DNA from: Candidatus Omnitrophota bacterium
Lineage (GTDB): Bacteria; Omnitrophota; Gorgyraeia; Zapsychrales; Fredricksoniimonadaceae
DNA: 64,000 nucleotides
Assembly (NCBI GenBank): GCA_903860135.1
Contig: CAIOPG010000009.1
Span: forward strand, 37,916 to 101,915
Direction of reading: 5' to 3'
Under the pieces are notes generated by a model, which worked only from the letters and a program-made list of their open reading frames with translations, ran no database searches and was not told the DNA's origin. A program made the translations under genes and the position numbers. Positions 10,860 to 55,500 of this stretch are shown here, piece by piece. The first letter of the stretch is position 1, and every line of letters starts with the position of its first letter.

Positions 10860-10861
10860 GA

Positions 10862-14009: not shown

Positions 14010-14033
14010 AACATTTAAAAAGGAGTTTTTCAG

Positions 14034-14885: not shown

Positions 14886-14910
14886 GCCTAAATAGAAAGG
14901 GGCGTCTTGT

Positions 14911-15198: not shown

Positions 15199-15201
15199 GC
15201 C

Positions 15202-16195: not shown

Positions 16196-16196
16196 C

Positions 16197-16781: not shown

Positions 16782-16795
16782 AGAAAGGCACTTAA

Positions 16796-33436: not shown

Positions 33437-33476
33437 ATCTATCTCCATTAACTTATATTATTGAGTAAACCGATAC

Positions 33477-35499: not shown

Positions 35500-36897
35500 T
35501 CACTTCCCGTAGAATTTGTTGATCTCCTCAGCCGTGATCCGGTGCAATTCCTCGGGTGGCAAAAGGGACAAGATGGCCCAACCAAGATCAAGGCTTTGAT
35601 CGAGGCTTCTGTCCTCATGACGGCCTTGTGTCAAAAAACGCTGTTCAAAGGCATCGCCAAATTCAAGGTAACGCCGGTCAATCGTTGACAACTCCTCTTC
35701 ACCGATAACAAGGGCCAGCGACCGCACATCTTTCACCCGCGCGTAACAGGCAAAAAGCTGGCTGGCCAGATGCGGGTGATCTTCGCGGGTCATGCCGAGG
35801 CCAATATTGTCTTTCATCAGGCGTGACAACGAAGGTAAACCGGCGATCGGCGGATAGATCCCTTTCCGGCTCAGTTCACGCTCAAGCACGATCTGCCCTT
35901 CGGTGATGTAGCCGGTAAGGTCAGGGACCGGATGCGTGATATCATCATTGGGCATGGTCAGGATCGGTACCTGCGTGATCGAACCTTTCAGACCCCGGAT
36001 GATCCCGGCACGTTCATACAAACTGGCCAGATCGCTGTAAAGATAACCAGGGTAACCTTTCCTGGCCGGGATTTCGCCGCGCAGGGTGGATATTTCGCGC
36101 AACGCTTCGCAGTAATTGCCCATATCCGTCATGATAACTAGAACATGCATCTCTTTCTCAAAAGCCAAAAATTCAGCACAGGCCAGTGCCGCACGCGGGG
36201 TCATGATCCTTTCGATCGACGGGGCATCGGCGAGGCTCAGGAAGGTCACCACTTTCTCAAGAACGCCGCTTTCTTCAAAAGAATCAATAAAGAATTGCGC
36301 GATATCATGTTTGACTCCCATGGCCGCAAAGACAACCGCAAAACCTTCGGTGTCCCCCATGATCCTCGCCTGCCGGGCGATCTGGGCCGCGAGGGCATCA
36401 TGCGGCAGACCGTTACCCGAGAAGATCGGCAATTTCTGGCCACGCACCAGCGTATTCATGACATCGATCGACGAGATGCCTGTCTGGATGAACCGGTTGG
36501 GATAATCGCGGGCCGTAGGATTGATCGGAAGACCGTTCACATCCGCTGTTCTTTCCGGGATTGGCGCCGGCATGTGATCGACCGGTTGCCCGAGCCCATT
36601 AAATACTCTCCCGAGCATCGCCGTTGAAACCTCTAGCGTAAACGCGCGCCCCGTGAACTTGACCCGCGGCACAGCCAGCGAAAATCCGCCAGTCCCGCCA
36701 AAAACCTGCACCACCGCCAGCCCCTTGGCCACCTCAAGGGTAATACCTTGCCTGGTCACGCCCTGCGCATCGACGATTTCAACAAGCTCGTTATAACCGA
36801 CATCATGTATCCCTGCAATGACAAACAGTGGCCCCGTCACATCGTGGATGCCGGTGTAATCGCGGTTGTTGTATAGAGATAATGTCGCCATGATCAC
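35500..36897 (-). CDS. atpB: V/A-type ATP synthase subunit B
   Basis: 465 aa, non-catalytic alpha/beta-family. Confidence 0.9.
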
Positions 36898-38669
36898 ACG
36901 CTCCCTTCGCGCGCAAACGCCTCGACCTCCCGGCGCAACGCGTCAAATTTCTCCAGTTCGGCGTTGCCGATCGCCCATTTCATTTTCAAAACATCAGAAC
37001 GCAGGCGTGACTTCCTGATATGTTCGAGCGTCATCCCTGACTTGATAGCCTCCAGGCATTGTTTATGAAAGCCAAGGATGATCCTGAGCATCCGGGCCTG
37101 TTTTTGTGGGACCGAGAACATATCGATCGCATCGAATGAACTTTGCTGAAGGAACGTGGTCCTAAAGATCAGGCACGTTTCCAGGAGAACTTTCTGATTG
37201 TCCTGCAATACATCAGGCCCTACCAGTTTAACCACTTGCTTGAGACGTTCTTCCTGCTGTAACAGCCCCATGATCTCCTGTTGCATCACCCGCCAGTCCG
37301 GATCAATGTGCGCACACCACCAGTCTCCGATCTCTTCCCTGTACTCCGAATAACTTTCGATCCAGCTGATCGACGGGTAATGCCGGGCATTGGCGAGATC
37401 CTTGTCGAGTGCCCAGAAACATCGGACACAGCGTTTGGTATGCTGGGTCACCGGCTCGGCGAAATCTCCTCCGGGGGGCGATATGGAACCGATGATCGTT
37501 ACCGAACCGTGCTGCCCCGATAATGTCTCAACAGCCCCGGCGCGCTCATAAAATTCAGCCAGCCGTGTCGGCAGGTACGCCGGAAAACCTTCATCCGCCG
37601 GCAATTCCTCCATTCTGCCGGAAAGTTCGCGCAACGCCTCGGCCCAGCGCGATGTGGAATCCGCCATGACCGCCACATGATAGCCCATATCCCTGTAATA
37701 TTCCGCGCAGGTGATCCCGGTATAAATGCTCGCTTCCCTTGCCGCTACCGGCATATTCGAGGTGTTGGCGATCAGGATGGTCCGTTCCATCAATGAACGC
37801 CCACTGCGCGGGTCGATGATCTTGGGAAAACTAAGCAGAACATCCGTCATTTCATTGCCGCGCTCGCCGCAGCCAATGAAAATGATAATATCGGCATCAC
37901 ACCATTTGGCCAGTTGATGCTGAACGATCGTCTTGCCCGTCCCAAAGCCTCCGGGCACCGCCACAGCCCCTCCCTTGACGACCGGGAATAAGGTATCAAT
38001 GACCCTCTGCCCGGTGATCAGAGGCTCGGTAAGCCGATCCCTCGACCGAAACAACCGGCCTTGCCTGACAGGCCAGCGCTGATACAAATAAACTGGCTTT
38101 TCCCTGCCGTTCATGGTGATCACCGCGATAATATCATCGAGTGTGCATTCACTTTCATCGACAATGGATACCACCCGCCCGCACAGGGGATGAGGCACCA
38201 GCACCCGGTGCTCGACCAGTGCCGTTTCAGGCACCGTTCCCATCACGGCACCCGGCGCAACGTTATCACCGGCTTTAACCTGCGGCTTAAAATGCCACCG
38301 CTTTTTCCGGTCAAGCGCCGGTGCATGGATGCCTTTTTGAATGTAAGACCCTGATGCCAGGCGGATCACATCGAGCGGGCGCTGGATCCCGTCGTAGATT
38401 GTACCGATCAGACCGGGTCCCAACTCCACCGCCAACGGCATCCCCGATCCATAAACCGGTAACCCCGGGCGCAGGGAAGTTGTGTCTTCATACACCTGCA
38501 TCGTGATCTTTTTACCCGAAAGACGTACAATCTCTCCGATTAAATGGTCATCTCCGACCTCGACCATCTCGAGCATCTGCGCCTCCGCCACGCTTGCGGC
38601 CTCCACCAGAGGCCCTGCTACCCTGGAAATATATCCGATGATATTAAGCATAGGTTCCAAAGACCTCAT
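36894..38669 (-). CDS. atpA: V/A-type ATP synthase catalytic subunit A
   Basis: 591 aa. P-loop GGFGTGKT. Confidence 0.9.
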
Positions 38670-39303
38670 TCAGGATTTCGGCTCGGATCGCGGCATACGC
38701 CCTCGATAAGCGACCCTCGAACGTATTATTACAAGCGATGCGCCTGTCCTTTGACCTTAGAATGACACCGATATCTTTTGCCGCGGCATCAGGTTCAAGT
38801 ATCAGGGTTATACTTTTATGATGTTTTTCTTTCAGTGCACGCTCGATGTTACCCAGAAAGTCAGAATTCATTATTTCCACATCGCACACAGACGCCACGA
38901 CAATGACCACATCCGTGTCGAGGGTTAATGCCCCCTCAACGATCAATTCTTTCAAATGATCCCCGTAGGCTGGTGAAACGCGAAACCCCGCTGTTAGCCC
39001 TCTGATCCTCGACAGGATCTCTTGCAGAACTTTCTCCTGCGCCTCAAGCCTGATCTTACGTCGTTCCTGGCTGATCGTTGCCAAAATTGTCTTTGCCTTT
39101 GCGGCACCTTCTTTTGCCGCCGCATCAAGTGCCTTGTCACGCATGACGACCAGGTTCGCCGTCTGCTGTTCGAGCAGATGCGCCGCGTCCTTTCTGGCCT
39201 GCGCACCAATTTCGTTGGCTTCACGACGAGCATCTTCGCTGATGCGGGTGCGTAACGCCTCAGCGGAATCTCTTGGCACCATACGATCAGTTTTGCCGGT
39301 CAT
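38644..39303 (-). CDS. atpE: V/A-type ATP synthase subunit E
   Basis: ~219 aa. Charged coiled-coil N-terminus and globular C-terminus. Confidence 0.7.
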   Translation of the reverse strand: MTGKTDRMVPRDSAEALRTRISEDARREANEIGAQARKDAAHLLEQQTANLVVMRDKALDAAAKEGAAKAKTILATISQERRKIRLEAQEKVLQEILSRIRGLTAGFRVSPAYGDHLKELIVEGALTLDTDVVIVVASVCDVEIMNSDFLGNIERALKEKHHKSITLILEPDAAAKDIGVILRSKDRRIACNNTFEGRLSRAYAAIRAEILNEVFGTYA

Positions 39304-39605
39304 ACCTGTACCCCCACGGCCTGACGCACGATCTGTGCCAGGTTTCTTCTTCCCGGCAGAGCACCGTCACGGGTCGGGATCTCCAGTATCAAGGGCACAT
39401 GAGCCGTACACTGAAACTTGTCGATATCATCGCGGATCATCGCGGCCAGCGGTTCACTCACAAGAACAACGCCGACATCGAGCATACGCGTCGCGTCATG
39501 AAAAGCTTCGCGGGCTTCATGCGCTGTGTGCGCCACAACCCCGGTCACACCCGCCAGACGCAACCCTGTGATCATATCCGGATCGCCAATACAGAAATAC
39601 TGCAT
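39300..39605 (-). CDS. atpF: V/A-type ATP synthase subunit F
   Basis: 101 aa. IGDPDMITGLRLAGV. Confidence 0.75.
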   Translation of the reverse strand: MQYFCIGDPDMITGLRLAGVTGVVAHTAHEAREAFHDATRMLDVGVVLVSEPLAAMIRDDIDKFQCTAHVPLILEIPTRDGALPGRRNLAQIVRQAVGVQV

Positions 39606-39624: not shown

Positions 39625-39843
39625 TTAAACCTTACCCAGGATCATGATCGCGATGATCAGTCCATAAATCGCAATGCCTTCGGCCAGCCCGACAAAGATC
39701 AAGGCCTTACCAGTCACTTCCGGTTTCTCCCCCATAGCCCCGACAGCGGCTGACCCGACATACGCCACCGCGATCCCTGCCGATACCGACCCCAGCCCCA
39801 CCGCCAACGCCGACGACAAATATGCCCAACTGTGTGTATCCAT
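39625..39843 (-). CDS. atpK: V/A-type ATP synthase proteolipid subunit K (c), 2-TM form
   Basis: 72 aa, two hydrophobic helices. Conserved Glu in helix 2 (GLAEGIAIYGL). Confidence 0.8.
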   Translation of the reverse strand: MDTHSWAYLSSALAVGLGSVSAGIAVAYVGSAAVGAMGEKPEVTGKALIFVGLAEGIAIYGLIIAIMILGKV

Positions 39844-39857: not shown

Positions 39858-41636
39858 TTAAATAAAACGCCCATATCCCAAAGGCCGATATACCTTTCCT
39901 CCGCCGATAAAGAATTTTGAAAAGAACTCGTAATACTCCAGCCGTACCCCCTGGATCGCGGCCATAAGCCCCTCAAACAATAAAATAAAAATATTTCCAA
40001 TGACCATGATCAGGATCATCCCTGCCCTTCCCCCCGCCGCATGCCCGGCCATATCCGCAAGGCTGAAAACGGCCAGGAACAACCCCGCATGGGCCAGTGC
40101 AAACGCCGACAAGCGGATATACGATAAGGTATTGGCTAGATAGCTTATGCCGAGCTCCAGGAGCTCAACACCGCTCTCAAGCAAAGATCCACGCGTTCCA
40201 AATAGCTTTTTTAAAATATCTCCTGACCGAAACGCATTAATGATGTTGATCACAACGCCCAGGCTTATTAACCCCGCGCCAAAAATGATCGCCACCTTAA
40301 AGAATGTCGCCACGTTTTCCATCGGCCGCAACCACAGCGCCGGGATCACGCCCTCCATGCCAAAAACAACACCATACAGAAGCCCGAATATGGTCGCTGA
40401 CACACCGGCATAGGCCGCAAGAGCTCCGGCGCGGGCAACGGCAGTCTGGCGATGATGCCCAAGCAGTACCCCGGCCAACACAAGCAATAGCCCCTGCCCG
40501 ACATCACCGGACATGGCACCAAACATCACACAAAAACTCACCGCCACAAATACGGTCGGGTCAACAGTGCCGTATTCCGGCGTGTCATAATTTGTCACGA
40601 TCATTTCAAAAGGTTTAAGCCAAGGCGGATTGTCCAGAAGGACGGGCACTTGCTCGTTATTATCAGCTACGGCTGTCATATCCCGGGGGTGCTCGATATG
40701 CACACAACAACAGCCCTTGAGCATATCCTTGAAGGCGGTAGCCGTCGCCGCACAGATTTGCTCCGGCAGCCATCCGCAGACCAGGCAGGTTCGTGCCGTA
40801 CGCTGAAAATAGCCTTGCGCTTCCGCCATCAATCTGGCCACGATGATCTGCTGATAAAGCCTGCGAATCACTGGTAAAAGTCGTGTGGCATGGCGTGCTT
40901 GAGCCACATCCAGGCGTTCGATTTCTTTGTTGGTCTTGAGGATATTCAAACGCATATCTTCGCACAGATATTCAGGGTCGCCCTTGGGGATACTATCGGG
41001 TGCGATCGGAATCAGTTTTGCCTGAGCCAGTGCTGTCTGGACAGCCGCGTCATCTTGTTTCAAAGCCAGAACGAGGACTAACGCAGTGCCATCCTCGGCG
41101 ATGAAAGGGCAGCTCGCGTGCAGGATCGTAGCCAGGCTTTGTTCCACAATGATGCGCTGACCTTCATCCGCCTTGGTCAGCACGGATGTCAGAAAAGTAT
41201 GCCTGCCACAGGCGGCGCGGCCAACAGCTCCCGTACCAAACCTGTTCATGTGTTGCTGTAATAATTCTTTTTCTTTTAATTGCCCCAGCAGAGAGTCTTT
41301 TTTTTTGAAATACAATGCCCGTCGTGCTTCGATGACCGTTAGCTTACGCCCGAGTACCTCAACATCTATGCTGGAGACATCAGGAATATTGTTTTTCAGC
41401 ACCGCACACGGTTTTTTTCCTGCCGGTAGTAAGGCCGCAAGCCTTCGCTTAATTTCCTGATAGCGACCGACCAGCTCCTCGGTCTGCGTTGATCCAAGGC
41501 ACTTACCCCAGGGTTCCATGTCACCTATGCGCACCAGATGCAAACTGTCGCGCATGAGGAAGAAATCGGTAACCCGGTCCATATCCTGAACTAGGATGAC
41601 GGCACAAAAGAATCGCATGGGGGCTGAGGTCAGCAT
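39858..41636 (-). CDS. atpI: V/A-type ATP synthase subunit I (a)
   Basis: 592 aa. Soluble N-terminal half plus a C-terminal polytopic membrane half. Confidence 0.8.
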   Translation of the reverse strand: MLTSAPMRFFCAVILVQDMDRVTDFFLMRDSLHLVRIGDMEPWGKCLGSTQTEELVGRYQEIKRRLAALLPAGKKPCAVLKNNIPDVSSIDVEVLGRKLTVIEARRALYFKKKDSLLGQLKEKELLQQHMNRFGTGAVGRAACGRHTFLTSVLTKADEGQRIIVEQSLATILHASCPFIAEDGTALVLVLALKQDDAAVQTALAQAKLIPIAPDSIPKGDPEYLCEDMRLNILKTNKEIERLDVAQARHATRLLPVIRRLYQQIIVARLMAEAQGYFQRTARTCLVCGWLPEQICAATATAFKDMLKGCCCVHIEHPRDMTAVADNNEQVPVLLDNPPWLKPFEMIVTNYDTPEYGTVDPTVFVAVSFCVMFGAMSGDVGQGLLLVLAGVLLGHHRQTAVARAGALAAYAGVSATIFGLLYGVVFGMEGVIPALWLRPMENVATFFKVAIIFGAGLISLGVVINIINAFRSGDILKKLFGTRGSLLESGVELLELGISYLANTLSYIRLSAFALAHAGLFLAVFSLADMAGHAAGGRAGMILIMVIGNIFILLFEGLMAAIQGVRLEYYEFFSKFFIGGGKVYRPLGYGRFI

Positions 41637-42688
41637 ACCCAGGCTCCTTTGATCTGGCCCGACGACAACCCATGGTCTTTACCATAAAAGATCGACGCCA
41701 GTTTGCGTGTCTCGGCACGCTTGAGGATCAGATACGCCAGGATTGTCCCGATCGTAAAAGGAAAGCCGCGCATCACCCGCAGGGCTTCGCTGAAGAGAGC
41801 CTGGTATAGGACGCTTTCGAGTAAAGACAAGCCGGCATGATCGATCGCTTTGGCAAATAACACCCCGAGCTCCTGATACGGCCTGACCGCCAGGACCTTG
41901 AGCGTATCGGCAAAACCTTCTTTGACAAAAGCCAGGCGCAACGTTCGTTCATTGAGCCTGTACCCGCGCGGCAACAAGGTCATGGTCAAATCCCCCGACG
42001 GGAAGTCATAATACCGGCGCAGCCTCAACAGGGCGCCGATATTTTCCATATCAACTTCGATCCCGATGAGGCGGGTCGCTGCCATGCGGTCAGCATAAGG
42101 TAACTGGTCGATCTCAGCCCACAAACGGTTGAAATAATCACGGTCAATAGCGGCTTCCAAATAAAATAATGATCCGGTCTTGAGGTATTGCGCCGCTGCT
42201 GCCCGAAGCACATGACGGTAGGGCGTTGCTGAAAAGGCGACGGCCAGTTCATCAAGATCATGGGCAGAAAGGATATGCTCGATACTGATAGGATGGGTAA
42301 AGACTTCAGAAAAGATATGCTGACGGCCGCTGGTTTTGCCTTGAGTCGCCCAGTAACGGAGCAAAACCTTGACCTCGTTCAATTCATAGCGTTCACGCAG
42401 TAAAGTAACAACTTTGCCCGGATGCCCCTTCTCGCGCCAGGCTTTGATGATCTTGTCATGCGTGTGGACATCATCGAGGACGAACGCGCGTTCAAGTGCT
42501 TCAATATCCTTGTTCTGAATGATGTTGTCGCGGATAAAAGAGGAATAGGGTGTTGCCTGCAGGATGGTAATGACGTGCGCCACATCACGCGCCGCCAAGA
42601 GTAATCCCCATTGCCGGGGACGCAGGAATTGACCCGACATTGCCCGAATACGGGCATTGATAAACGCGTAGGTCGATAGATCGCGCAT
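41630..42688 (-). CDS. atpC: V/A-type ATP synthase subunit C (d)
   Basis: 352 aa, helical. Confidence 0.7.
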   Translation of the reverse strand: MRDLSTYAFINARIRAMSGQFLRPRQWGLLLAARDVAHVITILQATPYSSFIRDNIIQNKDIEALERAFVLDDVHTHDKIIKAWREKGHPGKVVTLLRERYELNEVKVLLRYWATQGKTSGRQHIFSEVFTHPISIEHILSAHDLDELAVAFSATPYRHVLRAAAAQYLKTGSLFYLEAAIDRDYFNRLWAEIDQLPYADRMAATRLIGIEVDMENIGALLRLRRYYDFPSGDLTMTLLPRGYRLNERTLRLAFVKEGFADTLKVLAVRPYQELGVLFAKAIDHAGLSLLESVLYQALFSEALRVMRGFPFTIGTILAYLILKRAETRKLASIFYGKDHGLSSGQIKGAWVC

Positions 42689-42738: not shown

Positions 42739-43050
42739 TCAACGCCCCAGTATCTTCCCAAAGAACTTTTCAGACACACCGTCGAGAGAATCTGTCGTCG
42801 CCGCCACCATCGCTCCGGCTTCACCCATGGCATCCTCGACAGCAGAATACTTGCTGTTTAAGGCATCTGCTTGCGCGTGCAGGATCATCATTTCACATTC
42901 TTTGATCCAGGCTTTCTGCTGAGCTTCTTTCAACCGCGCAGCCTCAGCGTTCGCTTCGGCAACCACAAGCAAAGCCGACGCTCGCGCTTCCTCGATCATC
43001 TGCGCCGCAGACGCCTCAGCCTCGAGTATCCCGGATATGATATTTTCCAT
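42739..43050 (-). CDS. V/A-type ATP synthase peripheral-stalk subunit G/H
   Basis: 103 aa, Ala/Glu-rich coiled coil. First ATPase gene. Confidence 0.5.
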   Translation of the reverse strand: MENIISGILEAEASAAQMIEEARASALLVVAEANAEAARLKEAQQKAWIKECEMMILHAQADALNSKYSAVEDAMGEAGAMVAATTDSLDGVSEKFFGKILGR

Positions 43051-43065
43051 AAGCCCTCGATAAAC

Positions 43066-43434
43066 TTAAGGATTTTCTTTATAATCAGGAATATTGAAAC
43101 GGCAAAAACGCAATAACTTGCTATATGTTTCAGTAGAAGAAGGATCATCCTTCACGAAGCGAACACCCGCCTCAAAACAGGTATCCTGACAAGCCGCCCT
43201 CGCCCAAGTTACCTTACCTACCAAATCCAGACATCCTTCAGAAGGGATGTCCATCGACATGAAAATCTTCTCACCTACTTTGAAATGCGTACGTCCAATG
43301 ATGTGACACCCATGGTGATGGATATCAAGGATCTCCGCCTGTTGGAAAGGCACAAACGCACTATCCTTATCGCGGCACTTCATCGCAAAAAGGACAGGTA
43401 TTCGTTCACAGTGTCTTTTGTCTTGGGCAGCCAT
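43066..43434 (-). CDS. PilZ-domain protein (putative c-di-GMP receptor)
   Basis: RHCER (RxxxR), then 25 aa later DIHHHG (DxSxxG variant with His). 122 aa. AAAGGGGG RBS. Confidence 0.6.
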   Translation of the reverse strand: MAAQDKRHCERIPVLFAMKCRDKDSAFVPFQQAEILDIHHHGCHIIGRTHFKVGEKIFMSMDIPSEGCLDLVGKVTWARAACQDTCFEAGVRFVKDDPSSTETYSKLLRFCRFNIPDYKENP

Positions 43435-43517
43435 AGCTATCCCCCTTTAAAATAATTATAACCCAGAGAAACAAGTCAAACAAGAGAAAATAGCCCCATA
43501 AAAAGCAATTGTTTTAT

Positions 43518-46500
43518 TCATCTCCAATACATCATAAACCACGGCATTCGATAATAAGGCATAAAAATACGGGGAAAGAAATAAAAAGTCCCTTGCGCAA
43601 TAATTTTCCCATTATTAACAACACTGCGCATGCTCCAGATGGTAACATTTCTGCCAGAAGAAATCATACCGTAAAGATACAATCTATCAAAAGAAATCAG
43701 CGTAATATCCATTTTAGCATCGAGCATCCCCTTCAACGTAATACTACCAAAATCCGATACGATCAAAATCCCGCCAGTAATGCTACGGACAAGTCCTGTC
43801 ACCGTTGTGCCGAGATCGCTGAATAGATTCACATCACCTTTAGCAATTAACTGCCCGGATATTTGAATAGCACCCGTAGTAAAATCAACTGAACCAGCGA
43901 TATGCACATCCCCAGTCAATTGCACCATATAACCTGTCGAAATATTTAAGTTCCCCTCACCCGTAATACCAGCCAACCCGCCATCATATGCTAATGGATT
44001 AACCGTAATGGTACCATTAGCGGTCAATGCTATATTTGCTCCGCTGGTCATTGACTGCAAACGACCAACGATAATATTACTATTTTGAGAAACAATCGTT
44101 ACTCCATTACCGGTTGTTTGCAGGGCAATAATGTTAATCGTGCCCGTCGCCGTAATATTAACACTCCCGCTCACATAACAAAACAAATCAATATCGCCTG
44201 TAACATTAAGAAAAAAGTTGTTGCCTGTATTCTTGTAAACAGCACCCACATTCAGTTCAAGGTTCAATCCAGGGGTTGTTTTGCTACCGATTTCTCCTTT
44301 AGCATAGAGGATCGCCTGTGAAGCCACAATATCAACAGCTGTATCATACGCCGCAATTTCGCGGACATTGCCGGTCATGGCACTGATACTCACCTGCCCA
44401 TACTTAGGCCCTGCCGCTACATAATCGATTAAAACATCTCCTGCCGTCGATGCCAGCGCCACATTATTCCCTTTGGCGTCAAGAGAAGCAATCACAGATT
44501 TGGTTGTAATCGTTCCTCCAGCCAGGATCCGGATAGCCCCATTCTTGTTGATAACATTAAACAACAATACCGCGTCTTTCTCACTAATTTCAAATATTCC
44601 AGACGCAATCGATGCGGTTAATTGCGCGATATCCGTGCACAGATAACTTCCTATACCGACTGTTAACGTCAATGTATTGGCAGTCAGTGGTGAATTGCCA
44701 TTCATATAAACTTTATTACTGGCAACCAGGATAATATCCCCTTTTACTGTACCAGTACTCACCATCCCTGATATAAGAATATTCCCTGAGGAAGAAATAT
44801 TGATCGTACCTTGGGGGGCATTGATGGATGTCAACTCTATATCGGCAGACTGACCGGCAATACTAACCTTATTAAAGGCAATCGTTCCGCCTGTCCCACA
44901 AACGGCTTGCAGTACTTTGACCGCCATCTCCAGATGACGTGCAGGATCAATGCCGGCGATAGACACACCGGCATTGATGAATGTCTTCCCGGCAACAATA
45001 TCAGCATCTGGATCTGTTGCAAGAATTTCATAGACTGATCCAGCGGCACTTAAGGTAATAACCCCCGTATCAGAACCTGCATCAATATATCCGATTTGAA
45101 TATCCTTCCCTGCAGATAATATGATCTTCCCGCCTTTGGCAACCAAATGATAAGCCGTAATAGAACCAGTGGCAGTGACATTCACAATACCGAGAACATC
45201 AGCATTCAGATACACATCGCCATCACTGATAAGATTCAGATCACGGGCAATGATTTGTAAACTCTTGACATTGAATTCTAAATTAAGCAACGGATTCGTT
45301 AAACTACCTACAAGCAATGCTTTAAAATCTGTACGCTGGGCAACAACATCCACCCCTGTCTTTAAATCAACAAGGCTGTCGGTCGGCAACTCATAAATGG
45401 CACCGATCGCTGCATACACAGATACTTTCCCATAATTTATCCCTGCCGCCAGATAATCAATCTGCACATCACCCATGCTGACAAAGATCGTAATATCATT
45501 ACCGGTTGTATCCATTTCGCTGATAACTGAGCCGACCACAACCTGTCTTGCAGCCATGATATTAATCGAGCCATTATGATTGATCACAGAATCAAGCAGG
45601 ATTGAATCAGTTTCAGAAATATTAATGCATCCGTTTGATGTCTGCGCCGTAAGGATAGTTATTCTTGTATTCAATGACATACCGGATACAGCACCTGCAT
45701 TCAAATGGGCAGTGTCAATATATGTCCCAGGTGTACTTGTCAATTGATCCGCGAAAAGGGTGATATCGCCTGCCGCCATAATGTTATTAAGGCTTAATGC
45801 GCCTGTATTCGTCACATTGATCGGTCCGTCACTGGACTTAGCGGACAATATTGCCAGTCGTGTGGATATGTTACCAATACCCTTCCCGGCCAGCAATTGA
45901 GCCTCAAAGGCTTGAAGGTTCACACCGGCAGTGAGCCCGGAAATCCATGACCCGGCGGTCAGTTTGACCAATCCGCTTCCAGCATCAAGTTGAACGATCA
46001 AAATATCCTTCGGCGTTAACAGGGAAACTGATTTATCTATGGTTTGTAAACGAGTGACCGTAATAACATCGCTGGCATTAACGATCAGGGCACATTCAAG
46101 AGGGGTAGTAAAGTTAATGTCAAAACCACCGGGAACATCAATCTCAAGCGTATCAGCAACGTCTAACTCCATGTCAAGTGTGAGCGTACCGCCAGACCTG
46201 AGAATGAGCTTGTTGGCCTCTATATCGACAGTGCTATCGCCCGGAAGGTTCTCTTGGATATCACCTTTGGCATCGAGTGTTATGGTTCCGGTTGAATGAA
46301 GATAATCAATAAACAGGTTGCCCTGTGTTCTTACCGTAACACCACCTTCATGGCTCATCAACCGTTGCAACAATAATGAATCGTTGCCAGAATTATAAAC
46401 ATTGATACCCTTCTGCGCTGTCACATCGAGCGCGGCAAGGTTCAATGTTGTATCCGTTGCGCCATTCACCGCTCCGCCGGCTGTTAGGAATAACACACCA

Positions 46501-49500
46501 TGGTTAGACAGTGTAATGTCCCCCAGCGATATGTCATCGGTTTCATGGATCGTCACATTGCCTTCGCCGGTCAACATCAAAAGTCCGACGGCTGTATTCA
46601 GTTCAACCATGCCGTTAGCCTGGCATTGTTGGGCATCAACGATATCTAATGATGCAGCCGCAATGAAGATATCGCCATTCATGGCCTGAATCTTTGCCTG
46701 TATGCCGACCTGATTACCGGCGATGATACGGATCGTTCCCTGCAATGCGTCGAGCGCATACTCCGGAGGCGTCACAATAACTGATTTATTGATAACGACA
46801 TAGTTCAGGACCGTTTCATCCTGGGTAACTGCGGTAGTCTTCCAGGCCGTTTTTTCAACCGTCGTGATCTTTTGGTGAATTTCTGTCACCGGCTGGATCA
46901 CCGGAGCATCCTGATAAATAAGATTCACTTGGCTTACCACCTGATAATTCAAATGCCGGCGAGGGTCAAGGATGGTATGGTTGTTGTATATTGTATCAAG
47001 CATGTAGTGGTATCTGGATTCAAAATCGTCGACAAGGATATAGGGAGGCGTTGGCGGTGCATAGTTTCTGGTATTTAAGTCTGCCATGACATTGGTAACA
47101 GGATAAGTGGCCGAAACATCGCCATAAAGGGTATTTATCCATTGCAAGTTTTGTACCCACTGATTATTAAGCCAACCGGTTGCTGAATTCCCGTCAATAT
47201 TAGCAATATCCTGAATATGGCCTTGATACTGCCAATGACTGCCTGTGACAACCTGATCCCATACGACCGATTGTTGAGCATTTTCCCAACGCACAAGGTC
47301 GTAGGTACTGTAACGTGGTTGTGCTGATCCATAATGCGCATAAATCGGAGAATACCGTTGAATCCACCACCTTTGCTGGAACCAGGATGATTCTCTGGCA
47401 TAAACATAATAATATGAACCAGCCGAATCAACCCACGCCTGTCCTACACTATAGTGGTTATCCAAAATAAAATACCAACCTGTCGCCTGCACACCCCAAT
47501 TATCACGGTAACTGCCCAATGAGTCTCCAAAATCACCGACGTACACATCAAGAATATCTGTTTTTTGCTGCGCATTCACGGGGATCGTATCTGTCATGCG
47601 GCTGTCAAACGAATAGGTAAAACGGGAAGATGTGGTATTATTCGCTGAATTAATTAAAGATAATTCACGAACCCCTCCCCAAAACGCAATATCATCCAAA
47701 GCGGAAACTTTACGCAACTCACCGGATATCATTTGATAATAGTACGGCGCTTCAATATAAAATGTTATCTGTTGGCGGATGGCGAACATGATATCGCCGT
47801 TTTCCTGCTGAAAAACAAGATCATTGATTTGATCCTGGTTAAAATCATACGCGACTGTTAGCAGTTTAACCTTGTTCCCGTGACTTATAACCTTACGTTC
47901 ATCAACCTTCCCCGCCCCATCGCCATACCAGACCTCCACATCCCCGTTAGCAAGGCTGACAATAATATCTTTGAAACTGTCGCGATCAAAATCCTGTGCC
48001 GTCAATGCACCGCCAAGCCAGTTACTGTCTGTTCTTATATCACTCCAGAACTCTTGCCAATTGACAGCCCCAAAGGCATCCTTTTGGCCAAGCCATACGA
48101 TAACGCTCTCGTCGGTATGCATTTGACTATCATTAGGGCTATACCAACGGGTTGAGGACTGCGTCACGATGTCCATGATCCCGTCATTATTCATGTCAAT
48201 CACCACAAAGGAAGAAACTTGATAACACAGTTGAAGGCGATCACTCCATTGACCATTCCCTTGATTAAAATATATAGCCAGATATGTTGGCCCTATCTGC
48301 AACAAAGGTGCGATGAAATCCAACAACCCATCACCGTTAAGATCCGTCAACGTTATTTTGTTCCCACCATAATATGAACACGGAAAGTCAGGGCCGCTAC
48401 GGGCAGTAAACCCGCCTTTACCATTACCTTCATAAATTACAGGATTTAAGATAATTTCATTCCCATCAGCGTCAAGACCCGGTAACGGGCAATAAGCCAC
48501 GTCCAGGTTCCCGTCATGATTAACATCGGCAACCTGAACATCCTGACCTGGCCGCGCGTCCAGAATAATGGGGTCAATAAATATACCGTTACCGGTATTG
48601 AACAATAATTGCATACCTTGATTCTTGGTGACAAGTGCCAGATCCATCTTCCCGTCATTATTAAGATCTCCTGCCTGCACGGCAACCGGCGGGCTGTCAA
48701 TCACGTATCCTATCACCCCATTCCATGCGCCAGTTACTGCATTGTACTTGAGGATTTCAAGAGTGGAAACATAGGCACCTTCTCTGGCGATTATCAATTC
48801 AGCGACGCCATCACCATCCATATCCGCCATACAAAATACCTTAAAAGATAACCCTTGAGCATCAATAACGGCTGTCTGGCTAAAATCAACGGCATTGCTT
48901 CTGGTGGACAGTGCGGCCTGAAAGGATGCCGTGCTGTAATTGGCGGACTTGGTCCAGACCGGGTCTTCCGCATAAGAATAGGAATTCTGCCCACTGGCAT
49001 CATTGATGATAATATTCCGTTGCCCGGAATTCTTTACATACTCCAGCATATACCACTGCACCCATTCGGGTCCGGGCTGTTGAACGCCTTGCTGGAACAA
49101 GCCGCTATTGTAATAATCATATGCCGGTCCGTCGGTCACCGCTGTGCGGCTATCAGCGAACCAACCAATCGTCAGCTCTTGTCCAACGGACAATGTGGAC
49201 GGGACCCAATCATTCTTCCATGTGAACCCATCACGTATAATGGCCGTATTAACGGTGCCGTCCGCCTTCAGAATGACAGCGTTCCGATCCAAACCATCTT
49301 TCCAGCCCGGCCACCACCAGCCGATCTGATGCAATTGTACCTTAGCGGTCAGCCAGGTGTTACCGACATCGACATATTCCAATGGATCTGCCGGCAGGGC
49401 AATGGCTTTCTGAATGTCCTGTTTGGCACCTTTGAGTATCTTTAACCAAAAGTCAGGCCGCTTATCCACAGGAAGGCTCGTATAAGCCGTCCCTAGAAAA

Positions 49501-52500
49501 TCCTTGCAATGAATATATTCATAATCATTTAGGCCATTCCATTCTGGCACATATTCCATGATATGCAGGTTAATATTGTTCCGTTTGACTGACAGATAAT
49601 CACTGCGGAGAATATATACATAGCCTTGTTCCGCATAGGGCGATACCATCGATGGCGCAATGGTTCCGTTGGCAATCAAGCTGCGCAGCGCGTCGGAATC
49701 GCTAACCAATACCAGATCTTTGCCGTTAAGCGTCGTATGGACTTCTCCACTGCCTGACGCATAGGTGACAAGGTAAAGCTGACGCAAAGCGGTAGTATCG
49801 GGGTTATAGGCAACAGCAAACGTGCCATCCGGCGATGCGTTCACCGTGATCGTGGAAGAATCTCCGGCGCCGGTCTGATATTCTTTCCCGGTTTTAACAT
49901 CATACCAACCAATCTGATCCACATTGACATTGAGCGTGTAATACCAGTTCCCCTTTAGTACGGGCGTCCAATCAGTTTCTTTCATGTATGTCGTTAGAAA
50001 ATATTCAATAACCTGCTCCTGAATAGTCCCCGACGGCTCACGGATAATGCCTACCTGATATGAAACTTTCGTTTCTTCGGGTCTGACATAGCTGATTTCA
50101 CGCAACATACTCCCACCGGTAGCATTAGCAGAAACGATGGTTACATTATGAGCAGCCTTCAGGGTAATGGCGTCAACACGCGCACTTGCTGAAATAACCT
50201 TGATTTGACCGGCATCTGATATGGTGATGTTACCCAACACCGATCCAGCCGAATCTTTCTTCCCTGTAAAGAATCCATTAACGTCGCGCTCACCGGCAAT
50301 ACACGAGACCGCTTGTCCAGCCTTAACAACCCCGGTGATCTGCAGATACTGCAAGGCCAAGGCATCAATGCTGCCTGTCGCCACAAGGGTACCGCCAACA
50401 GATAAATTCCTGGCTTCAATCCAAATGCTGTTTCCTGCGCTAATGATCGCGGGCAAGGCGTCGGTGTCAATGGCCGCGCTTAATGAAATGTCGCCGTTAA
50501 ATCCATGGATATCAACGCGCGAAACCCAAGGATCAAGTGCTGTAATAGAGGCACCCTGCGTTACTATTAATCCGCCGATACCTTCCATCAGGATACGTTG
50601 ATGCGCCATCACCCTGGCATCAAAACTTTTCCCCTGATTATCGACAGATCCAACCACATAAACCAAGCTGTTGGTGGTAATGGTCACGGCACCGGCACCG
50701 TTGATCTCCTGCTGTCCCCCGGAGTGAGCACCCACCCAACCTTCGACGGCAATAATACCGGTACTTTCAAGATCTATGTTCCCGTTGACAGAAAGCGTAT
50801 CCACCATTGCCCCGCGTTTAATCTGCAAGTCTGGTATAACGCCACTTGCGCCCATGACGTTTGTCTTCAACCCACTGCCCAGCGTAACCCTTTGCCCCGC
50901 CAAAATCAGTCCCCCCACCTGAAGACCACCGGCGGATTGCACTTGAATAACAGCATTTGAACCCAATGCAGTCATAGATCCTGATAATAATGTATCACCG
51001 GCGGTGGTCTTGATGTCAATGGCATTGAGTATGTTCCCGCTCCAATTTGCCGTCAGAAGACTTCCTGCATCCAGATAAAAAGATCCGGCCACAATGGCAA
51101 TGTTGTCCATGGCCGTTATAGAACCGGGCACGGTCGCGGATACTCCGTTAACGTAACCTTTCCCGCCGATCAACACCGAAGCATGTGCTGTAATCTCAAC
51201 CTTAGCGCAATTCAGTTGCCCAGCCAGCTGAATATTCATCCCTGAATCGAGGATAAGCGTAATGGGTGTATTGCCTGCACTGGCCTGAAGTATGGTCGCT
51301 GGACTCAGGTATAATAGCGCGGTATTCAGGGCATCGGTTGCTTGGGCTGCCCGAAGAATGATTTGATGAGACGCTTCGAATATGGCACCGAACTGAACCA
51401 TTAAATCCGATTGATCGTTATAAATCACATTGGCCACACGCCCTGTGGTAAAGTTCCATCCGGCACTCATCATGATATTACCGTGTGCCGTCGTCACTTT
51501 CCCTGTCACTAAAATATCTTGCCCTGCGGTTAATGTGATATTGCCATCCGTCGCGATAAAACCAGTTAATGACGCATTCAGATCAGCCTTCAGCTCTATG
51601 CCTTCAGACAGGATGGTTGCACCGATCACACCTTCCAGGTTTAAGGCACGGCCTGATAATACGACATTGCCAGCCACATCAATGCGGCCATAATCCTTGC
51701 CAAGCCATATAACACCGTTAGTGGTATGCACCGTTAATGTAGATCCGGAATATGACATATTAATGGGATTATCTATAATTATGTCCCCGTTGCCCATGAT
51801 CGTAATATTCCCTGTGGCAACAGAAAGCACGGCCGTCTTGGTGATACCAACACTTTGGGTTTGACCAACGGATAAATGACCAGATACCATCATAATGGCG
51901 TTATTGGCTGTTATGCTTCCACTGATTGTTAGCACACTGCCTCCGTTTATACCTACCGATGAACCATCGCCAGAGGCCGACAACAACCCTTTCATCATGA
52001 AATTACTGCCTGCATCGAGGATAAAATCAATGGAACCATTGCGTGTCCGAATTACCGCCGGGACATCAACAGTTATTTCACGACCAGCTCCCCCACCTGT
52101 GAAAACAAGTCCTGCGAATGAATCAATGCTTCCCCCGATGTAAAAAGCAGCATCCCCTGAAAGTAATACCCTCCCGCCCAAAGCCGCGGCGCTGATCATG
52201 GCTACAGGTTCAATGGCGTCAACCGTTCCTGTTGACAGACCTAATAATATAGCGTTCATGCCACCGGTAATACGGAAACGCTGGCCTTCGCTGGTGAAAA
52301 CAATCTTCCCGTCATGCAATATGACTTGAATGGAAACTGGCGTTGGGCTGTCAGACCCAAGACCTGCGGTTTTTAAGGCGGCATTGATCGCATACTGAAC
52401 ATCGGCTATAAGGCCTGCCACACTGCGGTTATCCTCCGTGATCGTTTTAGAAATATTGACCAGGACCTGCCGGAAAACATTTTTTTCTGTTTCAACGGAC

Positions 52501-55500
52501 AAGGTGAATTGGACACTGTCCGGTAAAACCCCACCGGTATGCTGTGGCCAGTTCGCAGTTTCAATGGCTAAAGAATAAGGTGTGGCAAATAATTCGAGGA
52601 TACCCTGCCCTGCCCTGATATCAATGGTACCATTATCTGCGAACGTTTTAATTTGTGCCGAACCATAAACCGATACGCCATTGCCCGCCGTAATGAGAAT
52701 TGATTTGCCGGCAAATAAGAACAATCCAACCCGCACTTGACCCAATACAGTAATAGAAATTGAGCTTTGCGTATCAAAAACTGTCAGCGTTCGACCAACG
52801 ACTGTTTGATGAACCAGTACATCGTTCATAACGCCACCTGCCACCACGCCACCCAGGATACGCGCGTGAAAGCCAGCTGTAATGTTGATGCGGCTATTGA
52901 CGGTTACGGTTGACAGGATAGACGCCCCATCGATATCCACGCTAAAACCGGACGTTGATCTGCCGTTCAATAAAATAGCATCATCGGCACTAAGGATACC
53001 GCCACTGTAAAGGCCGTCCCAGAATCCGCCGATGAGAATATGTGCGTCGGCGGTAATGGATATTATGCCACCGGCTGCCCGCGCGTCGCAATTACCCAAG
53101 ATAACAGCGTCTTGCATCGCGTACACCGTCATCATGCGTGCGGTTATCCCGCTGGAGCTCGTAAAGACAACGCTCGCTGAACTTGATGCATCATCGCCAC
53201 CGGTAATGTCCACCGCCCCTTGGGCTTCAACAGTGCCGTCAAGGAACATTTGTTCATTAGCCTTGATCGAAATGATGGCGCCATCACCGACCGCCGTCAT
53301 AACACCAAGGATACGCACCTGATTCTCACCGACGATATTGATGGAAACCAGCTGATCAGCTTGATGCATACTGGTGATCCGGCCAACCTTTGTAACGATG
53401 ACACTGGCATGGGCGCGTTGAGCCGTTAGATGATCGGTGGTAATTCCAAAAAATTCGCTGTTACTAACACCCGTAATACTGAAAGACACGGGATTATCCA
53501 TCACTAGCCGTCCACCTATAATCCATACTTTCATTTCCACAAGACCTGCGTTGATCAGTGCCTGTTGAATGGCCGCAGCCGATCCCCAAATGGTCGACAT
53601 GGTCCTCAGATTAATCATCTGCTTTTGGATCAGTCCGTTACTGTTGATAATCGTCCGTTCAAGGACAACGGCTATCGGGTCTTGGGTAAGCAGTAGATCA
53701 CCGGTGGCAACAAATCGGAAGTGTTCATCGGCTGCAACAGCCGGGATCAACAGATTGTTGGTACCCTGGCATATTTCCGTATGACCAATGGCCGTCAGTG
53801 TAAATGAAATTTGGCTTAAGAGTTGAACCGTGTTATTAGCACCAAAGACAACGGCAAACTGAAAAGGTTGTAATACTGCCGTGTTGTGGATCACCGTATA
53901 CATATTGGAAGCTTGCGTAGCCTGGGTGACACCGGTGATCGTAAAATCTGACACAACGGCGTGGGTTCCTTCGAGTGTAGCGCGGGTTATTCCCAAGAAA
54001 ATCTTGTCTGATGAAGGCAAAAGGGTTAAATCGACATTTGACCAGGGCACAGCCGTGTTGGCAGTCAATTCATCAAAACCGTCGAAACCAAGACAATCCG
54101 CATTTTTTAATGGCTGGATTGAAAATGAGCTGGTCGAACTCAAGAATAATTTGGCACCGAAAAGGCCGACATTAATGCCTGATGGAAGCTGGGACTGCAT
54201 CTGTGCCAGCAGATCCCAAAGGCTGGTACCGGAATTAACGGTGACGATAACCGATGTGTCTGCCGCGGTGACCTGGAATTGAACAGTATCCGGCAGTATC
54301 CCGTCGGCATAAAGAATATCCCAGGCACCAGTAACCGTGTAAAAAGATGTTGTGTTTGTATAGCCATCGTTGAGGCCCAATAGGCCGGTATTGCGTATGC
54401 CGATCAATGAAAAGAAATACTTGCTGCCCAAGACGATGCTATTGCCCTCCACCCGCGCCACCATATCCCCGTTGACGATCCCGTTGTCAAGGGTCGTCAG
54501 CCCAGCCGTGATGCAAGCATCCTGAATATCCGCCGCGAGATCCCAGCGGGTAACGTTATCGGCCGTTGCTGATGCTAATACAACCACGGGCACATGGCTT
54601 GTCATTGTTCCTTTAGAAATATTCACAACCAGGCTGATATCCGCCGTGAGTTGCCCGTTGGCCGGTATTAATCCCATCGCAGAAACCCATTGCCAACCGT
54701 TTAATGGAAGCGCCGCGTTTGAATCGGTCAACCCCAGCGTCGCAGACCCACCCAGACCGGTAATACTGAAATCATGGCCTGACGTGAACTGAAGTTTATT
54801 GTCTACCGTCAGTGTTACCGTAATGCTGTCCATGACCTGGCCATCTGCAGCGACAATAGTGAACCCCGCCTCGCGCAGTGCCCATTGAACATCTTGTGCC
54901 AAATCCTCGCGTGTTTGATTGGCCCGATCAGGATGCACACGTACAAGGTGCGGGACGCCACCCGTAAATACTTCAAGGACTGCTTCTGATACCAGGATAT
55001 TTGAAGTTAAGGCATCGGTAGCCGTAACGATATAAACAGACGATACACCGCCATTTATTACGACCTTTCCCTCTGACTGGATCTCTCCATCAACATACAC
55101 CTGCCGAGATGATTTAATCGATATCCCTGAACCCGCTCCACTCACGAAAATATTTCCCAATAGACGTATATCGTTATCCCCTCTGACCACAAGGGTATCG
55201 TTCGGAGCGAGCGTGCGTAATGTTCCGGACATCAGCAGGCTGACGCCGGAATTATCTATCCCGCAATCAAGCTGCATATGACCGCTGGTCGTCACCGTAC
55301 CGGTGATATCCATCCTCCAGGCTGAAAATAACGATGCGCTGGAATTGGTTCCTGTCTGCAGCCATACCCCGATAGCCATATCTTGACTGTAACCAGCGGC
55401 GATATCCCCCTTGATCGCCACCGAATGCTCGGCGGAAACTAAAAGCTGACTGTTATTCAAAGTTGTTTGGATCAAGGCACCAAGTTCAAGCGAGAAATCT

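What the first reader, a model, noticed from the sequence alone, without database searches (positions are those of the whole stretch)
43066..43518. PilZ receptor gene 83 nt downstream of the giant adhesin-like gene
This is a c-di-GMP effector placed next to a giant RTX-containing surface protein. It is conceptually parallel to c-di-GMP control of LapA-type adhesins, although by a different (PilZ) receptor. A TTGACT/TATAAT-like promoter pair and an AAAGGGGG RBS lie in the gap.
Basis: inference. Interest (0 to 1): 0.5.

Follow-up and report, generated by a model that had tools for sequence, protein, structure and literature searches.

The report
PilZ gene heading a V-type ATPase operon
The small gene is a real PilZ-type (cyclic-di-GMP receptor-like) protein in an uncultured Omnitrophota bacterium, but it travels with the rotary A/V-type ATPase operon that starts 15 bases after it, and a pilZ gene right after a giant gene is a pattern already published for this phylum.

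Summary
Window 43066..43434 (-) encodes a 122-aa PilZ-domain protein 83 nt after the stop of a giant gene (10,202-10,223 aa in full). TTGACT, TATAAT and AAAGGGGG are in the gap.

This PilZ was found in three genomes:
- PilZ, the ATPase operon and the TATAAT-containing upstream stretch are kept in all three.
- The giant gene is upstream in the two close genomes only.
- The 73%-identical ortholog follows a 128-aa gene and MFS/RND efflux genes instead.

The link to the ATPase is also narrow. Four related ATPase operons (35-54% identical C subunit) have no PilZ. Five more distant PilZ relatives sit in unrelated contexts.

West-Roberts et al. 2023 (bioRxiv) already report small pilZ genes immediately downstream of most Omnitrophota giant genes. 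No LapA/LapD/LapG-type feature was found.

The protein keeps RxxxR, but the second c-di-GMP motif reads DIHHHG (Ser to His), so binding is unproven.

Best reading: a stand-alone PilZ adaptor co-transcribed as leader of the ATPase operon. Its target is unknown. Modest interest.

The parts
43066..43434 (-). Stand-alone PilZ-domain gene, 122 aa. RxxxR is at R7-R11, and the variant second motif D37-I-H-H-H-G42-C43 follows. A C-terminal helix spans residues 98-113.
   Evidence: Pfam PilZ above the gathering score. AF2 pLDDT 86.3, with PilZ structures as top Foldseek hits. Family alignment. dN/dS 0.12.
43435..43517 (-). 83-nt intergenic region upstream of the PilZ gene. It holds a conserved CTATTTTCT (43493..43485), TTGACT (43479..43474), TATAAT (43460..43455) and the RBS AAAGGGGG (43448..43441).
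   Evidence: Sequence read directly. The scanner reports TTGACT-16-AATTAT at 9 of 12 matches and no terminator-like site. Three-genome alignment keeps CTATTTTCT, GTTATAAT and the RBS. The 91% nucleotide identity with L011 begins at 43493. No stable hairpin: z = +0.89.
43518..64000 (-). 3' two thirds (6,816 codons) of a giant gene. The full product is 10,202-10,223 aa. Contains an RTX nonapeptide cluster and FG-GAP repeats. Upstream neighbour of the PilZ gene.
   Evidence: ORF list and the open frame at the window end. Full length from L004 and L005. Pfam hits. Motif and hydropathy scan.
42739..43050 (-). 103-aa helical protein, the H/G-like peripheral-stalk subunit of the A/V-ATPase. Its start is 15 nt after the PilZ stop, with a GAGGG RBS in between.
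   Evidence: Weak hits to AhaH / V-type subunit H / V-ATPase_G_2, all below their cut-offs. Homologous to the first gene of related ATPase operons: 61%, 36% and 27% identity.
41630..42688 (-). A/V-ATPase subunit C (AC39/d).
   Evidence: PF01992, E=1.5e-55.
39858..41636 (-). A/V-ATPase subunit I (a).
   Evidence: PF01496, E=3.4e-21.
39625..39843 (-). A/V-ATPase proteolipid subunit K (c), 72 aa.
   Evidence: NCBIfam V-type subunit K, E=8e-17, below the family cut-off. PF00137 on the identical gene in L004.
39300..39605 (-). A/V-ATPase subunit F.
   Evidence: PF01990, E=1.1e-21.
38644..39303 (-). A/V-ATPase subunit E.
   Evidence: PF01991, E=1.7e-24.
36894..38669 (-). A/V-ATPase catalytic subunit A.
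   Evidence: PF00006, PF16886, PF22919 and PF02874.
35500..36897 (-). A/V-ATPase subunit B.
   Evidence: PF00006 and PF22919.
34852..35496 (-). A/V-ATPase subunit D (central stalk), the last ATPase gene.
   Evidence: PF01813, E=5.5e-53.

Best explanation
**Shown**
- The ORF is a genuine single-domain PilZ protein. It belongs to a rare subfamily whose named members are all annotated as Omnitrophota (RxxxR plus D-I-H-H-x-G-C).
- In this lineage the conserved unit is [upstream stretch with TATAAT] - pilZ - H - C - I - K - F - E - A - B - D.
- The PilZ gene has been added to the head of an A/V-type rotary ATPase operon that starts with the H-like gene in related genomes.
- PilZ evolves at the same rate as the ATPase subunits.

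**Inferred**
- pilZ and the ATPase genes are co-transcribed from the promoter-like element in the 83-nt gap.
- The protein acts as a small adaptor of the MapZ/HapZ/YcgR kind. It would sense c-di-GMP, or another ligand given the Ser-to-His change and the conserved Cys/His residues.
- Its most likely partner is the co-expressed rotary ATPase, where it could modulate assembly or turnover.
- The giant gene upstream is a juxtaposition specific to the two closest genomes. It fits the published tendency of Omnitrophota giant genes to be followed by a pilZ gene, but it is not needed for this PilZ gene to be kept.
For: - **Spacing.** PilZ stop to H-like start is 15 nt in the window and in L011, and 55 nt in L001. 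The gap from the giant gene to PilZ is 83 nt here and 151 nt in L011.
- **Synteny.** All three genomes with this PilZ (100%, 91% and 73% identity) keep pilZ, the 103-aa gene, AC39 and subunit I.
  - tblastn shows that synteny with L001 begins exactly at PilZ.
  - The 91% nucleotide identity with L011 begins at 43493, inside the gap. The giant C terminus just upstream is only 56% identical in protein and 69-74% in DNA.
- **Upstream signals.** GTTATAAT, CTATTTTCT and the RBS are conserved upstream of PilZ even where the upstream gene differs.
- **ATPase operon.** All nine canonical subunits are present without PilZ. The H-like gene is homologous to the first gene of related operons.
- **Selection.** dN/dS is 0.12 for PilZ and 0.13-0.21 for AC39. 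dN against L001 is 0.154 and 0.142 respectively.
- **Fold and motifs.**
Against: - **Narrow distribution.** The PilZ-ATPase link covers only three closely related MAG-level genomes, which amount to one or two independent observations.
  - Four related operons (AC39 35-54% identical) with the same gene order have no PilZ within the 6 kb examined on each side. An HMM search of the three whose DNA was available confirmed this.
  - Five more distant members of the PilZ subfamily (25-42% identity) lie in unrelated contexts.
- **No expression data.** Co-transcription is inferred from spacing only.
- **Read-through is possible.** No terminator was found between the giant gene and PilZ, so transcription from the giant gene cannot be excluded.
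- **Published alternative.** A preprint reports pilZ immediately downstream of most Omnitrophota giant genes, which favours a functional tie to the giant gene.
- **No precedent.** No PilZ/V-ATPase connection was found in the literature library.
- **Ligand unproven.** The Ser of DxSxxG is replaced by His, so c-di-GMP binding is not established.
Confidence: 0.5

Rival explanations
1. The PilZ protein is functionally tied to the giant protein, as the first reader proposed and as West-Roberts et al. suggest for the phylum. It would be a c-di-GMP receptor that controls secretion, deployment or anchoring of the giant surface protein. On this reading the ATPase operon downstream is incidental.
For: - pilZ is immediately downstream of the giant gene on the same strand, with no terminator-like structure between them.
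- The same adjacency holds in a second genome, L011, where the giant gene has diverged to 56% identity yet kept its position.
- A preprint states that the majority of Omnitrophota giant genes are immediately followed by one or more small pilZ homologs.
Against: - The 73% ortholog keeps the ATPase operon but has no giant gene upstream.
- Conservation drops sharply at the giant/PilZ boundary: 56% against 91% amino-acid identity between the same two genomes.
- None of five more distant subfamily members follows an ORF longer than 5,000 aa.
- No GGDEF domain was found in the visible 6,816 aa.
- The published pattern continues with carbohydrate transporters, not an ATPase.
- No LapD, LapG or type I secretion genes were seen.
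Confidence: 0.25
2. The location is incidental with respect to both neighbours. The protein is a free-standing PilZ adaptor whose target is encoded elsewhere, as with MapZ-CheR1 or HapZ-SagS in Pseudomonas (from my own knowledge). It happens to share a transcript with the ATPase genes in one small clade.
For: - Members of the same subfamily at 25-42% identity sit next to bactofilin, ZnuABC, PMT_2 glycosyltransferases, panB with a tRNA synthetase, and a HEAT-repeat protein. The subfamily therefore has no fixed partner.
- Related ATPase operons work without it.
Against: - The 15-nt coupling is kept across dS of about 1.2.
- The conserved upstream element serves PilZ and the operon together.
- PilZ evolves at the same rate as the ATPase subunits.
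Confidence: 0.2
3. This point concerns the ligand and is independent of the target. The protein has the PilZ fold but does not sense c-di-GMP. The conserved His/Cys residues (H39, H40, C20, C43, C111) would bind a metal or sense redox state, or the protein acts purely as a protein-protein adaptor like the Xanthomonas/Pseudomonas PilZ that binds FimX and PilB (from my own knowledge).
For: - The Ser of DxSxxG is replaced by His in most members, and C20, C43 and C111 are widely conserved.
- The closest PDB sequences by profile are the type IV fimbriae assembly PilZ proteins, at a weak E of 0.015-0.06. By my own recollection these do not bind c-di-GMP.
Against: - RxxxR is invariant in all 17 sequences, and the D and G of the second motif are kept.
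- Two distant members retain the canonical DISxHG in the same columns.
- The best structural matches are c-di-GMP-bound PilZ domains.
Confidence: 0.25

Closest known systems
Stand-alone single-domain PilZ adaptor proteins (e.g. MapZ/PA4608, HapZ/PA2799, PA0012, Alg44 and BcsA PilZ domains, PlzD/VCA0042, YcgR C-terminal domain)
   Same: - About 120 aa with a six-stranded beta-barrel and a C-terminal helix.
- N-terminal RxxxR.
- Pfam PF07238 match above the gathering score.
- Foldseek probability 1.0 to these structures, TM-score 0.6-0.7.
   Different: - The second motif is D-I-H-H-x-G-C instead of (D/N)xSxxG.
- It has conserved Cys residues.
- The subfamily is very small: 24 cluster representatives at E<=1e-3 among 1.84 billion.
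- Every member that carries a source name is annotated as Omnitrophota/Omnitrophica.
- Ligand and partner are untested.
Giant gene followed by pilZ in Omnitrophota (West-Roberts et al. [quoted passage not shown] 7C)
   Same: Same phylum. A small pilZ homolog lies immediately downstream of a very long ORF on the same strand.
   Different: - The paper deals with proteins over 30,000 aa that have many transmembrane regions, SecA-like domains and often GGDEF domains, followed by carbohydrate transporters.
- Here the protein is about 10,200 aa. Its visible part has RTX and FG-GAP repeats and no GGDEF.
- The next genes here are an A/V-ATPase operon.
- The PilZ ortholog persists without the giant gene in another genome.
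LapA/LapD/LapG c-di-GMP-controlled RTX adhesin system (Pseudomonas fluorescens type; from my own knowledge)
   Same: A very large repeat-rich protein containing RTX repeats lies next to a gene for a putative c-di-GMP receptor.
   Different: - No LapD-type GGDEF-EAL receptor, no LapG protease and no type I secretion genes among the neighbours scanned.
- RTX repeats are mid-protein rather than C-terminal.
- The resemblance is conceptual only.
c-di-GMP control of rotary machines: direct binding to FliI/HrcN export ATPases (Trampari et al. 2015, PMC4591828), and the PilZ brakes YcgR/MotI on the flagellar motor (PDB 5y6f, 5vx6)
   Same: A PilZ-type or c-di-GMP input associated with a rotary ATPase or motor. 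FliI and HrcN are relatives of the F1/V1 catalytic subunits (from my own knowledge).
   Different: - The only evidence here is gene linkage to an A/V-type ion-pumping ATPase.
- No case of a PilZ acting on an A/V- or F-type ATPase was found in the library.

Membership tests
PilZ domain (Pfam PF07238), fold level | Significant match to the PilZ profile and a PilZ beta-barrel fold | tested here: met
   - 32.7 bits against a gathering score of 22.5.
- 13 of 16 subfamily members match PF07238.
- AF2 pLDDT 86.3, with the top 35 Foldseek PDB hits all PilZ domains.
Canonical c-di-GMP-binding PilZ receptors | N-terminal RxxxR motif | tested here: met
   R7-H-C-E-R11. Both Arg residues are invariant in 17 sequences.
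Canonical c-di-GMP-binding PilZ receptors | (D/N)xSxxG motif | tested here: not met
   - The motif reads D37-I-H39-H-H-G42.
- D and G are kept, but Ser is replaced by His (Asn in two members).
- Only two distant members keep DISxHG.
- The protein is therefore not filed as a proven c-di-GMP receptor.
Canonical c-di-GMP-binding PilZ receptors | Measured c-di-GMP binding | not testable with these tools
   Needs purified protein (ITC, DRaCALA).
LapA/LapD/LapG-type adhesin control | LapD-like GGDEF-EAL receptor and LapG (BTLCP) protease encoded nearby | tested here: not met
   No such domains were found in the ORFs scanned from 19 kb to 43 kb or in the other window ORFs scanned. The region upstream of the giant gene lies outside the window.
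LapA/LapD/LapG-type adhesin control | Adhesin with C-terminal RTX repeats and a type I secretion signal | tested here: not met
   GGxGxD repeats occur only at window-part residues 1675-1785 of 6,816. None occur in the last 200 aa, which look like beta-helix repeats with an aromatic tail.
Omnitrophota giant-gene neighbourhood (West-Roberts et al. 2023) | Small pilZ immediately downstream of the giant gene | tested here: met
   83-nt gap on the same strand in the window and in L004-L006. 151 nt in L011.
Omnitrophota giant-gene neighbourhood (West-Roberts et al. 2023) | Giant protein over 30,000 aa with many transmembrane regions and SecA/GGDEF domains | tested here: not met
   - The protein is 10,202-10,223 aa.
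- The visible 6,816 aa have RTX and FG-GAP only, and the hydropathy scan gave only 4 isolated positions above threshold.
- The N-terminal ~3,400 aa were not seen.
Omnitrophota giant-gene neighbourhood (West-Roberts et al. 2023) | Solute-binding-protein transporters and glycosyl hydrolases further downstream; type II secretion-like locus upstream | tested here: inconclusive
   Downstream there is an A/V-ATPase operon, a PIF1 helicase and response regulators, not transporters. The upstream side is outside the window.
A/V-type ATPase operon | Full set of subunits A, B, C(d), D, E, F, H/G, I(a), K(c) in one cluster | tested here: met
   The H/G assignment rests on weak profile hits plus homology to the first gene of related operons.
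A/V-type ATPase operon | PilZ as a conserved member of the operon | tested here: inconclusive
   Present in 3 of 3 genomes of the close clade (AC39 at least 76% identical). Absent from 4 of 4 related operons at 35-54% identity.

The most novel reading that the evidence does not exclude
In this Omnitrophota lineage a PilZ protein has been recruited as a tenth, regulatory gene of an A/V-type rotary ATPase operon. It would act as a second-messenger-dependent (or redox/metal-dependent) brake or assembly factor on the ion-pumping ATPase. This would be analogous to YcgR/MotI on the flagellar motor and to direct c-di-GMP binding by FliI/HrcN. It could couple the energy state to deployment of the neighbouring giant surface protein during host attachment.
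Probability: 0.15. Interest if true: 0.7.

Novelty: new member of a known kind. Interest (0 to 1): 0.3.

Why it matters
If the PilZ protein really acts on the A/V-type ATPase, it would be the first case I could find of a PilZ-type input into an ion-translocating rotary ATPase. No precedent turned up in the literature searches here. It would also give a lead on how ultra-small, host-dependent Omnitrophota regulate their energy budget.

As it stands, the evidence is gene linkage in three closely related metagenome genomes. The giant-gene-then-pilZ adjacency that motivated the finding has already been described in a preprint.

The practical value is a correction. This pilZ should not be read as a LapA-like adhesin switch. 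Its conserved partner in this clade is the ATPase operon.

Tried and rejected
1. **Genome-contig scan** with a two-sequence AC39 alignment returned only the contig already held, because the peptide patterns were too specific.
With six sequences it returned only the known SESG01016335 contig.
3. **Profile search of the 5.8-billion protein set** with the 17-sequence alignment returned only 6 proteins. Contexts could therefore be read for five distant members only.
4. **PDB sequence searches** gave no significant hit for the two-sequence profile or for the N-terminal half. The 16-sequence profile gave weak hits to the type IV fimbriae assembly PilZ proteins. Residue-level mapping of the binding site onto a solved c-di-GMP complex was therefore not obtained.
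5. **Rfam** returned nothing for the window or for the gap, so no c-di-GMP riboswitch or leader RNA was found.
6. **Terminator search and folding** of the 83-nt gap found nothing stable in the window. L011 has a GC hairpin (GCAGGC-loop-GCCUGC) without a clear U-tract.
7. **LapA-like system** was rejected; see the membership tests.
8. **PilZ as a substitute for a missing ATPase subunit** was rejected, because all nine subunits are present.
9. **Overlapping plus-strand ORFs** (43285..43455 and 42871..43116) were disregarded. The minus-strand frame is the one conserved under purifying selection.
Full report
**1. The observation**

Window 43066..43434 on the minus strand is an ATG-initiated ORF of 122 codons.
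- It matches Pfam PilZ (PF07238) over residues 5-110, with E=9.5e-8 and 32.7 bits against a gathering score of 22.5.
- It has a weaker match to the PilZ-type paralog family TIGR02266.
- The next ORF upstream on the same strand is a giant gene occupying 43518 to the window end. The frame is still open at base 64000.
- On longer contigs of the same organism the giant product is 10,202-10,223 aa.

In the gap, read on the minus strand:
- TTGACT lies at 43479..43474.
- TATAAT lies at 43460..43455.
- AAAGGGGG lies at 43448..43441, six nt before the ATG.

TTGACT and TATAAT are only 13 nt apart. The consensus scanner paired TTGACT with AATTAT at 16 nt (9 of 12 matches). It found no more promoter-like sites than shuffles give: 4 against 2.2 +/- 1.8.

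The 6,816 aa of the giant protein visible here carry one RTX cluster and FG-GAP repeats.
- The seven GGxGxD nonapeptides lie at window-part residues 1675-1785, in the middle of the protein.
- The last 200 residues have none.

**2.

Fifteen nucleotides after the PilZ stop codon, on the same strand, begins a complete A/V-type ATPase operon:

| Subunit | Coordinates (-) | Note |
|---|---|---|
| H/G-like | 42739..43050 | 103-aa helical protein |
| C (AC39) | 41630..42688 | |
| I | 39858..41636 | |
| K | 39625..39843 | |
| F | 39300..39605 | |
| E | 38644..39303 | |
| A | 36894..38669 | |
| B | 35500..36897 | |
| D | 34852..35496 | |

The 103-aa protein has only weak profile hits. It is nevertheless homologous to the first gene of related Omnitrophota ATPase operons, at 61%, 36% and 27% identity. 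All nine canonical subunits are therefore present without PilZ, which makes PilZ an accessory gene.

**3. Which neighbour does PilZ travel with?**

The word-indexed protein search found only the identical protein and one ortholog at 73% identity, annotated as Candidatus Omnitrophota. Contexts are as follows.

| Genome | PilZ identity | Upstream of PilZ | Downstream of PilZ |
|---|---|---|---|
| Window, L004-L006 (same organism) | 100% | giant gene, 83 nt | ATPase operon, 15 nt |
| L011 (2.3-kb contig) | 91% | C terminus of a giant-protein relative, 151 nt | 103-aa gene (15 nt), AC39 |
| L001/L002 (two MAGs) | 73% | 128-aa hypothetical, MFS, RND-MFP, OEP, MarR | 103-aa gene, AC39, subunit I |

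- None of the L001 upstream proteins has a counterpart anywhere in the window. Synteny begins exactly at PilZ.
- Between the window and L011, DNA identity is 91% from 43493 (inside the gap) through the ATPase genes.
- The giant C terminus just upstream is only 56% identical in protein and 69-74% in DNA, depending on the alignment.
- The three upstream regions share CTATTTTCT, GTTATAAT and the RBS.
- dN/dS is 0.12 for PilZ and 0.13-0.21 for AC39, with nearly equal dN against L001 (0.154 and 0.142).

The conserved block is therefore the upstream element, pilZ and the ATPase operon. The giant gene is the variable neighbour.

**4. How far does the ATPase link reach?**

Not far.
- Operons whose C subunit is 52%, 54%, 41% and 35% identical have the same order (H-C-I-K-F-E-A-B). 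They are preceded by a glycosyltransferase, a secretin, a DUF456 protein, or P-II/Amt genes, with no PilZ.
- An HMM built from the subfamily finds no PilZ in the three of those loci whose DNA was available, and no second copy in the window.

From the PilZ side, an exhaustive HMMER search of 1.84 billion cluster representatives found only 24 relatives at E<=1e-3 and 7 at E<=1e-10. Those that carry a source name are annotated as Omnitrophota/Omnitrophica. Five of them could be placed in context.

| Member | Identity | Neighbours |
|---|---|---|
| P0033 | 42% | thioesterase and bactofilin |
| P0035 | 31% | lipase and PMT_2 glycosyltransferase |
| P0040 | 26-30% | 917-aa protein and ZnuABC |
| P0055 | 26-28% | panB and a tRNA synthetase |
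| P0043 | 25-27% | second pilZ and a 2,232-aa HEAT protein |

None is next to an ATPase or follows an ORF longer than 5,000 aa. The PilZ-ATPase arrangement is thus a recent acquisition specific to this clade.

**5. The protein itself**

In the 17-sequence alignment, R7 and R11 (RxxxR), G42 and W77 are invariant, and D37 is nearly so.
- The second c-di-GMP motif, canonically (D/N)xSxxG, reads D-I-H-H-x-G-C in most members.
- Two distant members keep DISxHG in the same columns.
- C20, C43 and C111 are widely conserved.
- C82 and C86 are both kept in the three closest sequences; C82 is also kept in P0033.

The AlphaFold2 model (pLDDT 86.3, pTM 0.78) is a six-stranded barrel with a C-terminal helix. 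Its best PDB matches are PilZ domains, most of them crystallised with c-di-GMP: VCA0042, BcsA, PP4397, YcgR, MrkH, MotI, Alg44 and MapZ. By sequence profile the nearest solved proteins are the type IV fimbriae assembly PilZ proteins, but only weakly (E about 0.015).

PilZ fold membership is therefore secure. c-di-GMP binding is plausible because RxxxR is intact, but it is unproven because of the Ser-to-His change.

**6. Literature**

- West-Roberts et al. [quoted passage not shown] They suggest an interaction with GGDEF domains in the giant proteins, and they describe carbohydrate transporters further downstream.
- Seymour et al. 2023 (PMC10066038) document that giant ORFs are common in Omnitrophota.
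- The adjacency that motivated this finding is therefore already on record for the phylum. The published cases are much larger, membrane-spanning proteins.
- Searches for PilZ together with V-type ATPase or ATP synthase found no paper linking them.
- c-di-GMP binding to rotary export ATPases related to F1/V1 is known (Trampari et al. 2015, PMC4591828).

**7. Mechanism**

Shown:
- A PilZ gene under purifying selection.
- A 15-nt coupling to the ATPase operon.
- An upstream element shared by the three genomes.
- No terminator-like structure on either side.
- No Rfam RNA in the gap.

Inferred:
- pilZ is the leader gene of a ten-gene transcript.
- Its product is a small adaptor whose most likely partner is the co-expressed rotary ATPase.

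Rivals:
- A functional tie to the giant protein, which the published pattern supports but the L001 genome and the conservation break argue against.
- An unlinked target.
- A ligand other than c-di-GMP.

The data do not discriminate these decisively.

**8. Verdict**

- The LapA analogy is not supported.
- The object is a new member of a known kind: a stand-alone PilZ protein of a small, apparently Omnitrophota-restricted subfamily with a variant second motif. Its gene context in this clade, at the head of an A/V-ATPase operon, appears to be unreported.
- Interest is modest (0.3).

Noticed in passing
window 14034..14885 (+), within about 8571..17791: A 283-aa ORF matches both halves of the PM2-type viral coat protein P2: Pfam P2_N at E=3.5e-13 and P2_C at E=8.8e-15. 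It sits among many small unannotated plus-strand ORFs. This may be an integrated corticovirus-like (double jelly-roll) prophage in an Omnitrophota genome.
   Followed up: no
window 39625..39843 (-): The proteolipid (K/c) subunit of this ATPase is only 72 aa, a single hairpin. The same gene is 109-122 aa in the related operons L008, L009 and L012. Subunit I is also shorter here: 592 aa against 632-656 aa.
   Followed up: no
window 43518..43751 (-) against L011 2..208: The C terminus of the giant protein is only 56% identical between two genomes whose adjacent PilZ and ATPase genes are 91-92% identical. An aromatic tail containing 'PRIF' is kept. The giant gene evolves much faster than its neighbours.
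   Followed up: partly
window 33477..34838 (-) and 32660..33448 (-): A PIF1-family helicase starts 13 nt after ATPase subunit D. A 262-aa protein follows 28 nt later, with a receiver domain and an unannotated ~140-aa C-terminal half. Both may belong to the same transcript as the ATPase. The same order is seen in L004 and L005.
   Followed up: no
window 5496..7838 (+): A 780-aa protein combines a cyclic-nucleotide-binding domain with a patatin-like phospholipase domain.
   Followed up: no
window 24771..27994 (-): A 546-aa ORF with no Pfam family lies directly upstream of a PMT_2-type glycosyltransferase. A PMT_2 gene also follows the PilZ relative P0035 in L017 and L018. This may be coincidence.
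   Followed up: no
L011 240..260: A perfect 6-bp GC hairpin (GCAGGC-GUCAA-GCCUGC) lies in the 151-nt gap between the giant-gene relative and pilZ. It is absent from the window's shorter gap. It could be a terminator remnant.
   Followed up: partly
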